A DNA stretch of 64,000 nt from Eledone cirrhosa (GCA_964016885.1 OZ024755.1:4154001-4218000); one strand, 5' to 3'; shown: positions 17,301-41,939, counted from the first letter of the stretch. The notes: generated from the sequence alone by a model not told the origin. A program made the numbers and translations.

Positions 17301-17521
17301 AGAAGTGGTTACACAACAGTTAGTTCACTATACCGAGAACAATTGTTTCACCTTAGCGGATCCTCAGATCGTAAGGGTCCATTACCAGCTGAGGATCCGC
17401 TAAGGTGAAACAATTATTCTCGGTATAGTGAACTAACTGTTGTGTTACTACTTCTACCTAACTCGTCCCTTGGACTGAGTGCTCTACCACTACGGATATT
17501 ACCTTCCAGTGTTCCACCACT
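17301..17521. mobile_element. Fold-back element with two divergent hammerhead motifs
   Basis: Arms 17301-17367 and 17389-17456 are reverse complements. On + the sequence reads TACCAG-CTGAGGA-TCCGCTAAGGT-GAAA-CAATTA-TT-CTCGGTA (17383-17425). Flanked by (TA)n. Confidence 0.75.
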
Positions 17522-17530
17522 ATATATATA

Positions 17531-17975
17531 TCATCATCATCATCACCGTTTTACGTCCGTTCTTCCACGCTAGCATGGGTTAGACGGGTTGTCCTGTTGT
17601 GGGCAGTGTCCGGTCGGCTGACCTTGTCTTGCTCATACAGGAACTGATTTTGGCTTGATTTCTACAGCTGGATGCCCTTCCTAACACCAACCTCATTTAC
17701 AGTGAGTGCTGGGTGCTTTTTTTCCGTGGCGCCTACACGTCCACTTTACAGTGTGGGCTGGGTGCTTTTTTGCCGTGGCACCTCCACGACCACCTTGCAG
17801 TGTGAGGGTGTGGGGGCATATTGTCTATATGCTTCAGCTTGTACCCATGGGAGGTCGAGTACTCTGTATTACTGCGTGACGCCAGAGGTCACCGCCGTGT
17901 CATTGCTTTTGAGAGATGTAATTGGGTAAGGTCGGCTTTTATCACCTCATCCCAGGTCTTCTTGGGTCTCCCAAG
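17531..17975 (-). mobile_element. RTE-type 3'-end-derived repeat with (GAT)n tail
   Basis: CATCATCATC...CGTTTTACGTCC and TTCTACAGCTGGATGCCCTTCCTAACACCAACC. Relatives at 24600-24810, 30520-30790 and 30960-31320. Confidence 0.65.
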
Positions 17976-18649
17976 ATATATATATATATATATATATACA
18001 TACACACATGGCCGCCAAGTATAATATAGCTTGGATGCTAATACTAGAACTATACTATCTATTGTCTGTTCTAAATATCTATATATCTGTATCTTTCTAT
18101 CCTAACAGCCAGTATTTATTATTCTATACAACCAACTCAAGTCAGCAGAGCATTCATAAAGCTTAATTTCGTTACGACCACAATCACATTTATTTATAGC
18201 ATTGACAAACAAATATTAATAATGCTAGCATTTATTACTAATATCCTACTTTTTCAGGTATCTGTGCGTATCAGTGCCATAATAAATAATTGTTTTAAAA
18301 CGTCCTAGTATCAAAGCCATCATAAATATTATTTCTTTCGTTCTATCAATTGATAATTTAAAAGTGGTCGATAGGGTGAAAGGTGGAAAAAGTTGTACTT
18401 GGAAACGGCTGGCCTCCTGATAAATCTAAAAATATATTACAATAACAATAATCTAAGGTGACTGAAGTGTAACAGTCACGGTAGAGTGACGTTCAGATTC
18501 TCACCCATACACACACAATCTCTCTCTCTCTCTCTCTCTCTTACTATCTCAATATATATATATATATATATATACACACACACATATATATATAACGTGT
18601 GTGTGTGTGTGTGTGTGTGTGTGTGTGTGTGTGTGTGCCTGTGTACATA

Positions 18650-18727
18650 CAGGGTGTCCCCCAAAAATGTATACATACTTCAGCAGCATTGCAATTAAAG
18701 TGTGTATACCTTTTTTGGGACATCCTG
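18650..18727. mobile_element. Tc1/mariner-like MITE
   Basis: TA-CAGGGTGTCCCCCAAAAATG...TTTTTTGGGACATCCTG-TA. Confidence 0.75.
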
Positions 18728-18747
18728 TATATATATATATATATATA

Positions 18748-37491: not shown

Positions 37492-37784
37492 TATATATAT
37501 ATATATATATATATATATATATATATATATATATATATATATATATATATATATATATATATATATATATATATATATATATATATATATATATATATAT
37601 ATATATATAAACACACACTTTAGGATTGAGAGGGTTCGTTGGTTTGAGTGTGAAAGACAGAGAGAGAAAGAAGGGAATATGAAGGAAATATGTTCATATT
37701 CTTCAAGCTAGATCTATTGTCAATGATACCCGGCTCCGGTTATATCTAACACTAGGTTATTTCATATAAATTATTATTTATAAT

Positions 37785-37998
37785 GGAATATCTGTATCGG
37801 TAGAGCATCGGACAACACTCTCTGTGGCATAAAGTTACGGCTTTTTACGTTCTGAGTTCAAATCCCGTTGAGGTTAGTTTTACCTTTATCCTTACAGGGT
37901 CGATAAAATAAAGTACCAGTAACGCTCTGGGGTCGATTTAATCGACTTTCCCCCCTTCCCTTCAAATTGCTGGCCTTGTGCCAAAAGTAGAAAGTTAT
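37785..37998 (+). mobile_element. Family A tRNA-SINE
   Basis: Same head and central domain as 5254-5441. Confidence 0.8.
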
Positions 37999-38931
37999 TT
38001 AATGTTTAAATATTTTTGTCTATATAACTTCGTTAAATTACTTGTTGACACTGTACAGAAAATGTTATCTCAAGCATCCTTGAACTGAAAAGATAAAATG
38101 AAATTTCGCCGAATGTTGTCAGTGAGAAACACGTGTTCTAATTGTAGATTGCTCGTTTCTATTTCCTGAGTCCACATTCTGTTTCGTTGTTAAACCTCTT
38201 CGTTTCTTTGTAAAGGATATTTATTTTCTTCTTCAAACTTGTTGAATCTGCGGACACTTGTTTGTAAAGAAAGCAATGCAGAAATATTATGTTGAGTGAC
38301 ACACACAGACACAGAGAGAGAGAGAGCTACATCTGCACACGTGCACTGAAATGAAAACCATCGCACACACGAACACGAAAGACAACACACGCTGATGACA
38401 AGTGCTTTGTGGCCGTTTGGTCTGCTAGAATAAGCAGGCAAATTTTTCCCTTGCATGACATCCAGCTATCTTTAAATAAATAAATAAGGGGTATACATAG
38501 GACAATGGAAGATCCCTTACATTATGGCTGAAAAAAACCCCCCCATAAAAGAAGGGATGTACAAGCACGAATGGCCTTTACTTTTCAAAGAAGGCTCAGA
38601 ATAAACTTGCCGGTCTTTTAGTTCTTTTGTTTTCAATATTTTCCGAAAATCTCTTCGGATTTTTACATTTTAAATTACAAGGATCAGCATAGTTAGTGTT
38701 TACTCTGTGTCCAATATATATATATATATATGTCCAATATATATATATATATATATATTGGACAGTCAGCTTCCTAATGATTTCTCACGAATGAATCAGT
38801 TCTAGTCCTGTAGAAGCTTTTCTATATTATATATATATATATATATGTTTATCCCGGGTTCAATCGGGGGTAACCACAGTAAGTAAGGTACTCAATGCAA
38901 AACAGAGTATAAATATAGCAAAGCTTCTACA

Positions 38932-38973
38932 GGACTATAACTGTTTCATTCGTGAGAAATCATCAGGCAGCCC
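38932..38973 (-). ncRNA. Type I minimal hammerhead
   Basis: Minus strand GGGCTGC-CTGATGA-TTTC(TCAC)GAAT-GAAA-CAG-TT-ATAGTCC. Confidence 0.7.
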
Positions 38974-41817
38974 TATATAGAGAGAGAGAGGAGGGCAGCC
39001 AGTCACACTGAGTGATATGTCTGTGGCCTGCTAGAAATAGGAGCCAAATCTGTATTATATTTTATCAACCCCAATACTTCAGACTTCCTCACAATAGACA
39101 CATTACTATAACTATGTTGATCCCTAATATTTGGCAGAGCTGTAAATATCGCTCTGGTAAAATAATAAAGGTGACTATATAATCCCGTTATCTACTATTT
39201 AAAACATAATTAAAAAGCAATTATTATTATTTTTTAATTAAAAAGATCGAGGGAAAAGTTACGAAAGGAAGGAAAGAGGGTGAAAAAAAATTAATTTAAA
39301 TTTCGAAAAAAGATTGGTTTGGCTGAATTGTAATTTCTTCTGATTGAAATGTAGAAATCCGAAGAATTTTTCGAAAAAGAAAATGCTAAATAACAAAAAA
39401 AGTTATGTCCAGTTCTTCGCTTGAACATGCGCCAAATTTTCTCAAGAAAAACAAAGCTTCAACATTAAAATTATCCAACATATGTAAAGTTAATAAATGC
39501 TTTTAAAATCTAAAATATATAATTAAATAATAGATATTAACAAGAATAATCATGTTTGTTCCAGTATAGTAGTAACTCTACCATATTGCTCTTGTATAAG
39601 GCAACAAAATAAGAAATTCTGCATGTTTCGGGTTCTTGTTTGTGTTTATTTAATTGCTTACTATTCTGGCGAGGAAAGGCAATGCTTCCTTGGTTTGTAG
39701 AGAGAAAAGTGTCGTCCTCGAACCAATGGCCTAAATTGTTGCCACAAAGTGGACTCTACTTAAAAACATCTACGGCCCAGCCAAACTAGTTAGTGGTGTT
39801 AAACCTGGCAACAGATTGTATCGCTTAAGAAACTATCCCTCCGACCTACTTATTCCCACAGTTTCCCTCTGCCAAATTTCACCGAAAGGTTTTTATTCGG
39901 CCTGAGACTATAGTGGAAGGGTGTAAAGCACTTGTTGAGGGTGTATGTGCAGTATGATTAAACCCAGAATGGTGTATTAACGAATCGAACTAAGCGAAGT
40001 TGTTATCCACTTAATCATGCCTGTGTATTCGTTTTACTAATCGTAATATAAAAGAATTGCCTGATAATGTCGTTATAGATAGAAACCACTATAACATCTT
40101 AGATAGAAACCACTGGAAGCATCTTAGCTACCAACACACACACACACACACACACACACACACACACACACACACACACACACATACATATACATATACA
40201 TATATATATATATATATATGTCTCTAGTCCTGTAGAAGCCTTTTCTATATTAAATATTTATACTCTTTTTTGTATTGAGTACCTTACTGTGGTTACCTCC
40301 GATTGAACCCGGGATAAACTTTATATATATATATATGAAACAGTTGTAGTCCTGTAGAAGTCTTTTATATATATAAAGAAAATGGTCCCGTAACGCCTGA
40401 TGAAGTCATTTCTTAGCCATTTTAAGCCTGTGGATCCCATCTCTCCATGTCTGAACACACCAAATTTCTTCCAGGGAAAGGATAGAGAGACAGGAAGTGA
40501 GAATGAGATAAATCGCACCAGTATTAGACTGGTACTTTTTAAAACTTTTATATATAATGGTTTCTCGAGGTCAATAAAAAAAAAAAGTACCAGTCTAATA
40601 CTGGAGTCGAAAATAAGACGGGTTTGTCGTGGTTGGAAATGCTTATGATCATACGATAAGTCTGCTTGATACAGTTAAACAACGGACACGTACTTGTTGT
40701 ACATATATGAGCTAGCGCAGCACACACACCATTCTCCATGCAGGAACACTATTAGACTTAAAGACGTACACACGTACACACCAATATAATTAAACACTAG
40801 AACTTGATGTAAACTTTCTCCCATTCTTTCCAAGTAGATCTGTTGTGTATAAGCTTACTTTGGTAACTTTCGTTAGATTATTTTGAAAATATCTTTTCCT
40901 GTTTCATTTTATGGTCTTATTTAGATTCATCCATAAATAAATTTACCTAGGTTAGTTTCTTTTTTTTTTTTTTTTTTTTACTTTCAATTCTCTCACCAGC
41001 CTCGCTTCTTCTGTCTGTCTGCCTCTTTCTTTCTCTCTCTCTCTCTTTCTCACGTACACACACAAGCGTTAGCCTGAAATATTTTACAATATTCAATGAA
41101 ATCAAACCGTATATATATATATATATATATATATATATATATACTGTACCGATTGTGTTATTTCTGTTTACCTTTTACACACACACACATACACACACAC
41201 ACATATATATATATATATATATATATATATATCTTTACCAGGATCTATATTGGGCACCGAAACCGTAGTGGTTTCCAAAGGTTGACTGAGGAATGGGACT
41301 GTCCGTCTTTGCGTTGTTATTGTTTTTCCATTGTCTTTGAATATATATATATATATATATATTGTTATACTTTGGGAGGGTCATGTTGCCAATAAGAAAC
41401 ACACGCACCAGTTTCTTTCACTCCAATTTATTATAAATTAAAAATTAAAAAATTTGGCAACATGTATAACACTATCCCAAAGTATAACAATATCGGTTTC
41501 AACACGTTTTCAGATAAAGAATCTTGCTAAACAAATTCAGAATCGGTCGGAATATTGCTTAAAACTTTCTCTGTTAATGTATTAAATATATTATTAATTC
41601 TGGGCAATATTATATATATATATATATATATATATGAAAAGATTCAGGACTCCGGCCGTTTCAAAAGCTAGATCCGAATATATATATAATATATATATAT
41701 ACACACTTTTATATACATTTTTATATATACCAAAGATTATGGTTCATTGATTACTCAATGAAGATAGTTTTACAATAGATTAAAAGCACTCTACGAGAAG
41801 GTTTTCTGGAGTTATTA

Positions 41818-41939
41818 GAATAATAATAAATGAAGACATTCACATAATCAAAATGTTTTATATATATTTCGAAGGTACTTCGAAATATATATAATAAAAC
41901 ATATTTTGATTATGTGAATGTCTTCATTTATTATTATTT
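41818..41939. mobile_element. Fold-back element with hammerhead 3' halves
   Basis: Palindrome centred on TTCGAAGGTACTTCGAA, with GAAA-TATATA-TA-ATAAAAC on +. Confidence 0.6.

What the first reader, a model, noticed from the sequence alone, without database searches (positions are those of the whole stretch)
17301..41939. Recurrent divergent fold-back architecture with junctions at or just 5' of the ribozyme core
Seen: elements at 378-491, 5938-7362, 7602-7724, 17301-17456, 19668-19792, 20610-20790, 27900-28143, 34395-34508, 37195-37491 and 41818-41939 are inverted pairs. Both arms read outward in ribozyme sense and the elements end in (TA)n. The centres fall in stem II, at GAAA, or within about 50 nt upstream of CUGANGA. 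Established: Penelope-like elements often show an inverted, truncated 5' pLTR. Inference: both ends of a break in self-complementary (TA)n prime cDNA synthesis (twin priming), or RT stalls at the ribozyme hairpin and folds back. Either would also make long dsRNA hairpins, which are ADAR or siRNA substrates.
Basis: partly seen in the sequence, partly recalled or inferred. Interest (0 to 1): 0.75.

Follow-up and report, generated by a model that had tools for sequence, protein, structure and literature searches.

The report
Back-to-back Hydra-type Penelope retroelement ends
This animal DNA holds many short back-to-back pairs of a jumping gene's ribozyme-bearing tail end inside TA repeats, nearly always one long and one short arm ending on either side of a conserved hairpin, which likely means that both ends of a DNA break were copied from the element's RNA, and would explain a known but unexplained insertion shape.

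Summary
All 10 inverted pairs are real and face outward. Of 16 head-to-head pairs in the window, 14 join a short arm to a long arm with a tail of about 40-95 nt; two join two long arms; none join two short arms (p about 0.002). Most tails carry a shared hairpin (RCTC-stem-bulge-GAGYRC), and the short arm ends 2-11 nt before it. The same hairpin is in 4 of 6 published Hydra-clade Penelope-like consensi, and in 61 of 117 metagenome loci, 15 with a hammerhead and some with a Hydra-type endonuclease ORF upstream. These are non-coding Hydra-clade 3' ends. Inverted copy, one-sided tail and (TA)n target are published; the mechanism is not settled. The short arm reaches further 5' in 9 pairs against 1, and some pairs do not overlap. 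That argues against fold-back and for priming from both ends of a break. Junctions cluster at the ribozyme, but not always 5' of it, and partly by ascertainment. RNA editing and siRNA are untested. The scan noted this architecture before in another genome.

The parts
336..491 (.). Family E pair: long arm on - (tail hairpin at 376), short arm on + with decayed hammerhead core at 427
1400..1513 (.). Family I pair, 25-nt arms, short left and long right, joined 3' of the family's ribozyme; tail of a different type
5938..7362 (.). Family A: three identical 310-nt units on - (hammerheads at 6085, 6395, 6705) joined at 6873 to 490 nt on + (hammerhead at 7164); retrozyme-like tandem; tail motif degenerate
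7602..7814 (.). Family B pair: short arm on -, long arm on + starting at GAAA; 12-nt duplication at the junction; tail hairpin at 7733
17223..17286 (-). Family D solo short arm with the same 5' end as the 19668 arms
17301..17521 (.). Family C pair: cores at 17367 (-) and 17389 (+), both arms start 10-11 nt 5' of the core; tail hairpin at 17461; both arms share an allele rare in the family
19586..19795 (.). Family D pair: long arm on - (hairpin at 19657), short arm on +, symmetric centre at 19730; no CUGANGA visible
19805..19897 (.). Family D pair with two long ends, internally deleted
20610..20868 (.). Family E pair: short arm on - with full hammerhead (core 20701), long arm on + starting inside stem II; hairpin at 20798
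21600..21766 (+). Family I solo short arm with decayed hammerhead-like motif at 21606
   Evidence: by eye
22599..22840 (.). (TA)n-bounded element with tail hairpin at 22768 (+) and a CUGANGA at 22678 (-); possible non-overlapping pair, not counted
25533..25782 (.). Family B pair: long arm on - (hairpin 25613), short arm on + with full hammerhead (core 25684)
26413..26556 (-). Family C solo long copy, full hammerhead (core 26544), hairpin at 26472
26679..26853 (.). Family B non-overlapping pair: inverted tail only, joined to a short arm with full hammerhead (core 26755)
27899..28213 (.). Family E pair: both arms start 47 nt 5' of the core; full hammerhead at 28063 (+), stem II deletion in the - arm; hairpin at 28152
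28330..28577 (.). Family I pair, long left and short right, joined 3' of the ribozyme
33960..34174 (.). Tail-only piece on + (hairpin 33974) and family D solo long copy on - (hairpin 34110), tail to tail across (TA)n
34320..34508 (.). Family F pair: long arm on - (core 34449, hairpin 34383), short arm on +; 3-nt microhomology at the junction
35642..35756 (.). Family K: inverted tail joined to a short arm with a decayed core at 35689; copies at 44469-44584 and 11012-11047; not counted because the copies may share one origin
37195..37491 (.). Family D pair with two long arms (hairpins 37268 and 37421)
38769..38974 (.). Family F short (+) and long (-, core 38966, hairpin 38908) copies tail to tail across (TA)n; opposite orientation to the rule
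40220..40321 (+). Family F solo long copy starting in stem III
41361..41610 (.). Family I pair, short left and long right, joined 3' of the ribozyme
41732..41950 (.). Family G pair (related to B): long arm on - (hairpin-like motif 41812), short arm on +, symmetric centre just before GAAA
44624..44684 (+). Family F solo short copy, core at 44631

Best explanation
These are short non-coding 3' ends of Hydra-clade Penelope-like retroelements lying head to head in (TA)n, one arm ending just before a conserved hairpin and the other just past it, and they likely arose when the element's protein cut both DNA strands and copied RNA from both broken ends, the two copies then likely being joined near the ribozyme. 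Shown: the anatomy, the long-short pairing, the hairpin and its link to Hydra-type elements. Inferred: (1) an autonomous Hydra-type protein elsewhere in the genome binds the RNA at the hairpin; (2) it cuts both strands of (TA)n; (3) one 3'-OH primes 2-11 nt 5' of the hairpin and the other 15-60 nt 3' of it, on one RNA or two sibling RNAs; (4) the distal copy often stalls at the hairpin or at the proximal RNA-DNA hybrid, so the short arm usually reaches further 5'; (5) both copies end after some 60-200 nt and are joined by microhomology-mediated repair, the ribozyme's own complementary strands supplying some of the microhomology.
For: Pairing: 14 of 16 window pairs are long+short, 2 long+long, 0 short+short; p=0.0017 if ends were independent (classified by eye; test). 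Reach: short arm further 5' in 9, long arm in 1, symmetric in 4 (sign test p=0.02). Non-overlapping pairs: 26683 in the window, L007 and L105 outside it. Fixed short end: 2-11 nt before the hairpin in 9 of 9 window cases measured; 4177 raw reads of run X7 and 163 contigs of X1 run into (TA)n at the family D short end. Hairpin: 16 descriptor hits, 15 followed by (TA)n or (CA)n within 90 nt, against 0.41 in 100 shuffles (descriptor fitted to the window). Independent test: of 117 metagenome loci found with a pattern that did not ask for pairing, 69 form an upper stem of 3 or more pairs (shuffle mean 8.9, maximum 18) and 61 form the full hairpin with varying, compensated stems; 15 of those 61 have a type I hammerhead upstream against 1 of the other 56 (p=0.0003). 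L057 has an ORF end matching the Hydra endonuclease motifs printed in PMC8557442's supplement, followed by hammerhead, hairpin and (TA)n. Seven of these loci are long+short head-to-head pairs with (TA)n on both sides, the inverted arm ending 2-12 nt before the hairpin (L007, L042, L064, L078, L100, L102, L105). In L078, and probably at 378, the join uses the two strands of stem I. Published in vitro: a Penelope-like protein cuts and extends both strands, starts at two adjacent RNA sites that bound the tail, and is predicted to be a dimer (PMC11167929). Both arms of 17301 share an allele held by about 1% of family depth in X1, as one template would give.
Against: No autonomous partner was seen: 136 of 179 non-simple window ORFs of 55 aa or more were scanned and gave no Penelope-type domain, and no genome is held. 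The in vitro work is on another clade and reports bulk start sites, not coupling within one event. Four window pairs have symmetric centres that fold-back explains as well. Shared alleles also fit fold-back or conversion between arms. Two pairs have two long arms, and two neighbours lie tail to tail across (TA)n (38769/38848; 33960/34174). Family A's tail motif is degenerate and family I has another tail. Some inverted units may have been copied whole (K copies 99/108 identical; shared upstream sequence in 25535 and 26683), so events are not fully independent. Short-read contigs favour short arms, which biases the metagenome junctions. No empty sites were recovered.
Confidence: 0.66

Rival explanations
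1. One cDNA is primed at the long site, stalls in the ribozyme, folds back and copies itself; the copy is then cut or stops at the short site.
For: Four of 14 mixed window pairs have centres with 1-3 unpaired bases (17301, 19668, 27900, 41818), as do L042 and L064. Arms share private alleles. Seven X1 contigs show other family D joins next to GAAA.
Against: It requires the unpaired centre to belong to the long arm: seen in 1 of 10 asymmetric pairs. It cannot make non-overlapping pairs (26683, L007, L105) or the 937-nt short arm beside a 490-nt long arm at 5938 without extra steps. The tandem at 5938 was copied through three ribozymes, so the ribozyme is no absolute block.
Confidence: 0.12
2. 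An antisense transcript primes on itself and the RNA-DNA hairpin is integrated (hypothesis of PMC3846280).
For: Published proposal for head-to-head repeats with palindromic junctions (passages). It can place the unpaired centre on the short arm if the RNA arm is trimmed at the short site.
Against: It needs antisense RNAs that begin exactly at each family's long end. The conserved hairpin and the ribozyme are both on the sense strand. Sense RNA suffices in vitro for extension of both strands.
Confidence: 0.1
3. Two-ended priming is right, but the junctions sit at the ribozyme's 5' edge because the RNA itself ends or is spliced there (run-off from the 5'-most repeat), or because short master copies begin there, not because of pausing or stem microhomology.
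For: Solo copies start at the same places as paired arms (family D 5 of 6 arms within about 5 nt; family F 5 of 6 at -2 to -10). In Drosophila virilis Penelope an intron ends at the 5' end of helix I (PMC4209133 passage). Some arms start at the cleavage site, as a cleaved RNA would give.
Against: No RNA data. Several metagenome copies extend over 180 nt past the core, some into the ORF. This concerns only the last step and is compatible with the best explanation.
Confidence: 0.3
4. They are miniature inverted-repeat DNA transposons with TA target duplications.
For: 19805 and 37195 have matching ends flanked by TA; family H is a palindrome copied whole (707/744 identical between copies).
Against: 14 of 16 pairs have unequal ends; single arms occur alone; arms carry hammerheads and a Hydra-type hairpin tied to a retroelement ORF elsewhere.
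Confidence: 0.04
5. The palindromes are sequencing or assembly artefacts.
For: 5938-7362 and 7602 have identical arms; no long reads were available; no laid piece spans a whole pair.
Against: Most arms differ; ends obey a family-fixed long-short rule; the same form occurs in independent public contigs and in published elements.
Confidence: 0.02

Closest known systems
Hydra clade of Penelope-like elements (Craig et al. 2021, PMC8557442)
   Same: (TA)n target; type I hammerhead within about 100 nt of the 3' end, often with U.U at the base of stem II as in families A, C and F; inverted 5'-truncated copy (noted for Penelope-13_HM); tail on one end only; the same hairpin in 4 of 6 supplement consensi.
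   Different: Window copies have no ORF; tails are about 40-95 nt rather than 30-40; the hairpin is not mentioned in the main text (0 occurrences of hairpin, stem-loop, twin or junction); no mechanism is given there.
Inverted pLTR structures of Penelope in Adineta vaga (PMC3846280)
   Same: Head-to-head inverted repeats, optional tail on one of them, palindromes at junctions (passages).
   Different: Full-length elements with target duplications; the authors propose antisense self-priming, which the asymmetries here do not favour.
Poseidon element PAc in vitro (Frangieh et al. 2024, PMC11167929)
   Same: Both strands cut and extended; two start sites bounding the tail; a stem-loop at the start site; AT-rich target.
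   Different: Another clade; the text read does not link these results to inverted pairs; its AC-rich stem-loop was not compared with the hairpin here.
Non-LTR retrozymes (PMC7229834; bioRxiv 10.64898/2026.07.22.740005)
   Same: Family A is a 310-nt tandem with one type I hammerhead per unit, within the 150-450 bp range given; non-autonomous and tied to Penelope-like elements.
   Different: Most window copies are truncated monomers in inverted pairs; 'inverted' does not occur in PMC7229834; circular RNA not tested.
Twin priming of LINE-1 (seen through passages of bioRxiv 10.1101/2024.12.14.628481; original paper recalled, not read)
   Same: Both ends of one break extended from RNA, giving head-to-head pieces; 26683, L007 and L105 have the non-overlapping geometry.
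   Different: Here both start sites are fixed by the element, the arms usually overlap, there is no poly(A), and the inversion is the rule rather than an exception.

Membership tests
Hydra-clade Penelope-like element | Type I hammerhead near the 3' end | tested here: met
   9 descriptor hits against 0.03 expected; complete in families A, B, C, E, F; core not visible in D and G; Rfam gave no hammerhead match.
Hydra-clade Penelope-like element | Insertion into (TA)n | tested here: met
   10 of 10 listed elements are bounded by (TA)n at their true ends, 4-6 units at the weakest. Empty sites not seen.
Hydra-clade Penelope-like element | Inverted 5'-truncated copy and one-sided tail | tested here: met
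   14 of 16 pairs.
Hydra-clade Penelope-like element | ORF with RT and C-terminal GIY-YIG endonuclease lacking CCHH (defines an autonomous member) | tested here: not met
   No such domain in 136 window ORFs. The copies are non-coding derivatives; the ORF link rests on other loci with the same hairpin (L057, L027), where Pfam gave no GIY-YIG hit.
Hydra-clade Penelope-like element | Phylogenetic placement of the mobilising RT | not testable with these tools
   No genome held.
Non-LTR retrozyme (family A only) | Tandem 150-450 bp units each with a type I hammerhead | tested here: met
   310-nt units, 310/310 identical, four hammerheads.
Non-LTR retrozyme (family A only) | Self-cleavage and circular RNA | not testable with these tools
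   No assay possible; no RNA reads were laid.
MITE | Terminal inverted repeats at both ends | tested here: not met
   Unequal ends in 14 of 16 pairs; met only by 19805 and 37195.
Naiad clade | No canonical hammerhead | tested here: not met
   Canonical type I motifs present. Family I, with a different tail, was not assigned to a clade.

The most novel reading that the evidence does not exclude
The RCTC/GAGY hairpin is the docking site that places two reverse transcriptases of a Hydra-clade dimer on one RNA, one on each side, so that every insertion is twin-primed by design. This would account at once for the inverted copy, the one-sided tail and junctions in the ribozyme helices, and would supply a roughly 100-nt cis element sufficient for (TA)n-targeted insertion.
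Probability: 0.4. Interest if true: 0.78.

Novelty: new variant of a known kind. Interest (0 to 1): 0.58.

Why it matters
How Penelope-like elements make their inverted repeats and one-sided tails is called undefined in PMC8557442. These miniature pairs turn that into countable predictions (one long end plus one short end, short arm reaching further, non-overlapping pairs) and name a small conserved RNA hairpin that can be mutated in an existing type of in vitro assay. They are also very abundant: laid depth over families C and D is orders of magnitude above unique DNA in run X1 (not a copy number). If transcribed they would form 50-140 bp RNA duplexes that bury the ribozyme, a possible source of editing or small RNA; that part is untested.

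Tried and rejected
No whole genome is held, so junctions could not be mapped genome-wide. Rfam found no hammerhead family; its microRNA hits are below threshold and fall on palindromes and microsatellites. No RNA holder listed among 9 runs. Laying four runs on 16820-19900: high-copy short repeats swamped the joint table (15 of 921 shown); molecule ends of X7 at 17344, 17412, 19046, 19716 and 19744 fall on AATT and were rejected as library cut sites; no empty site was shown. Pfam on three metagenome ORF ends gave no GIY-YIG hit. The MAFFT alignment of 15 tails did not align the 5' stem strand and was not used for covariation. Dropped before the count of 16 pairs: H (567-1337, 18748-19510; no ribozyme or hairpin), J (1556-2159; arms parted by TA), 51513 (minisatellite edge), K (three copies, perhaps one origin), 22599 (uncertain), and two tail-to-tail neighbours. 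Dropped from the metagenome pairs: L005, L008, L094 (AT-rich or self matches), L058 (unclear), L014 and L099 (no clear TA at the inverted end), L090 (two long arms), L091 (contig end). Look-ups of earlier findings by place and by sequence returned nothing.

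
Full report
Setting. The window is 64 kb of AT-rich animal DNA with many microsatellites, a cadherin exon at 32125-33627 and a fragment of a reverse transcriptase at 29111-29656. No genome is held. A cephalopod host is my guess from recall of such repeat landscapes and was not tested.

Observation. All 10 listed intervals are inverted pairs, arms 36-490 nt and 91-100% identical. A type I hammerhead descriptor hits 9 sites against 0.03 in 30 shuffles; Rfam reports no hammerhead. 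All 10 read outward. Self-comparison sorts the elements into families A-G, I and K, several with solo copies. Families D and G show GAAA-stem III-UH but no CUGANGA, so their ribozyme origin is inferred.

The palindrome is not the whole element. One arm stops at a family-fixed short site and meets (TA)n; the other runs on about 40-95 nt. I count 16 head-to-head pairs without (TA)n between the arms (378, 1400, 5938, 7602, 17301, 19586, 19805, 20610, 25535, 26683, 27900, 28330, 34320, 37195, 41363, 41818), classified by eye. Of these 14 are long+short, 2 long+long, 0 short+short (p=0.0017 under independent ends). Among the 14, the short arm reaches further 5' in 9, the long arm in 1, and 4 are symmetric (p=0.02). 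At 26683 the arms do not overlap at all. Rows left out are listed under Tried and rejected.

The tail hairpin. Tails of families B-G share RCTC, a 3-5 bp upper stem, a 1-2 nt bulge and GAGYRC. A descriptor fitted to these gives 16 hits, 15 followed by (TA)n or (CA)n within 90 nt (background 17%), against 0.41 in 100 shuffles. The short site lies 2-11 nt before it in 9 of 9 cases measured. Family A has only a degenerate form and family I another tail. By eye, the supplement of PMC8557442 shows the hairpin in 4 of 6 Hydra consensi: at the 3' end of Hydra-2_Amil, Hydra-2_Ajap and, with one change, Hydra-1_Crog, and at the 5' end of Hydra-1_Ajap; it is weak in Hydra-1_Amil and absent from Hydra-1_Obim. 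Hydra hammerheads often have U.U at the base of stem II, as families A, C and F do, and the clade targets (TA)n.

Independent test. An upper stem of 3 or more pairs forms in 69 of 117 (shuffle mean 8.9, maximum 18; 88 distinct hairpin sequences), and the full hairpin in 61. A type I hammerhead lies upstream in 15 of the 61 against 1 of the other 56 (p=0.0003); 20 of the 61 have under 70 nt upstream because the contig ends. L057 carries an ORF end with the Hydra endonuclease motifs of the paper's alignment, L027 is related to it (34% over 127 aa), though Pfam names neither. Seven loci are long+short head-to-head pairs bounded by (TA)n, with the inverted arm ending 2-12 nt before the hairpin. 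Their inverted arms start at -6, +38, +3, -7, -9, -2 and +9 relative to the core. L007 and L105 are non-overlapping; L078 is joined through the two strands of stem I. These loci are likely animal DNA within metagenomes (inference), come largely from a few datasets, and short-read assembly favours short arms.

Reads. Four runs were laid on 16820-19900. Unique DNA has depth 7-11 in X1 while families C and D reach 10^4-10^6; the other two organisms hold little of them. At the family D short end 4177 X7 reads and 163 X1 contigs continue into (TA)n. Three of the 15 joints shown (of 921) are 7 X1 contigs in which an inverted D arm meets a sense arm next to GAAA at other points than the window's own. 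Both arms of 17301 carry an allele that about 99% of family depth in X1 lacks.

Junction claim. In the six unlisted pairs about 9 of 12 starts are 3' of it; family I, whose ribozyme lies further from the end, joins short of it. Solo copies start where paired arms do. So clustering at the ribozyme's 5' edge and stem II is real and recurs in loci found without reference to the ribozyme, but part of it follows from arms of 60-200 nt and a ribozyme some 50-110 nt from the end. Pausing, stem microhomology, run-off at an RNA end and short masters cannot be told apart here.

Mechanism. Fold-back of the long copy predicts that the unpaired centre belongs to the long arm and that arms always overlap; both fail for most asymmetric pairs. 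Priming from both ends of one break predicts outward arms with 3' ends at the flanks, and two start sites around a bound hairpin predict the long-short coupling. PMC11167929 shows, for another clade, cutting and extension of both strands and two start sites bounding the tail. Junction microhomologies of 1-3 nt and small templated duplications (7602; L014) fit end joining. The protein, its binding to the hairpin and the order of events are inferred.

What is known. I found no paper that ties twin priming or this hairpin to these elements in searches of an open-access library; three of the 19 papers listed (of 24) hold both 'Penelope' and 'twin priming', with one mention of Penelope each, and I saw only their listings. 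Subscription papers are not covered.

Papers seen. PMC8557442: passages, section 11, supplement parts 2, 52, 53 and supplement searches. PMC11167929: parts 1-2 of 4 and passages. PMC3846280, PMC4209133, PMC7229834, bioRxiv 10.1101/2024.12.14.628481: passages. bioRxiv 10.64898/2026.07.22.740005: part 1 of 5 and passages. The editing papers: listing only. The original twin-priming paper and the link of templated duplications to polymerase theta are recalled.

Verdict. Real, Hydra-clade derived, architecture known; the long-short coupling, the reach asymmetry and the conserved hairpin make the open mechanism testable. Interest 0.58.

Noticed in passing
window 567-1337 and 18748-19510: Family H: a 770-nt (TA)n-flanked unit with an old internal palindrome (arms about 78% alike) copied whole (707/744 between copies); other genomic copies span the same centre. 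Each arm has tRNA-like A and B box motifs facing inward (by eye; ARAGORN found no tRNA).
   Followed up: partly
window 1556-1736 and 1979-2159: Two 181-nt copies, 178/181 identical, inverted, each bounded by (TA)n, 242 nt apart; they contain CUGAUGA but no convincing hammerhead.
   Followed up: partly
window 19805-19897: Internally deleted two-long-arm D pair that now looks like a 93-nt MITE with 27-nt terminal repeats.
   Followed up: partly
window 38769-38974: Short and long F copies tail to tail across (TA)n that share a stem II variant; may come from one event primed outward from an excised (TA)n piece.
   Followed up: partly
window 16830-16940 (-), 23060-23110 (-), 23860-24040 (-), 41969 (+): Further hammerhead-like motifs in solo or decayed elements; the one at 23100 has a 6-bp stem II and precedes a family I-like arm.
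   Followed up: partly
window 222-323: 5S rRNA-like fragment just under the Rfam threshold (36.3 against 38 bits), ending in (TA)n.
   Followed up: no
window 11835-15093: Tandem array of about 615-nt units next to an 800-nt TA-rich tract; no hammerhead hit.
   Followed up: no
window 32125-33627: 501-aa open frame with cadherin domains, probably a large exon; the elements may be intronic to this gene.
   Followed up: no
window 29111-29656: Fragment of a non-LTR-type reverse transcriptase (Pfam RVT_1).
   Followed up: no
window 45100-64000: No (TA)n arrays and no ribozyme pairs beyond about 45 kb; other dispersed repeats and minisatellites dominate.
   Followed up: no
L013, L061, L094: Tail-only insertions that begin 3-4 nt before the hairpin, directly after (TA)n.
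   Followed up: partly
window 24246, 26191, 53277, 54398: tRNA-like heads of a dispersed short repeat (Rfam tRNA model, 28-33 bits), likely a SINE.
   Followed up: no
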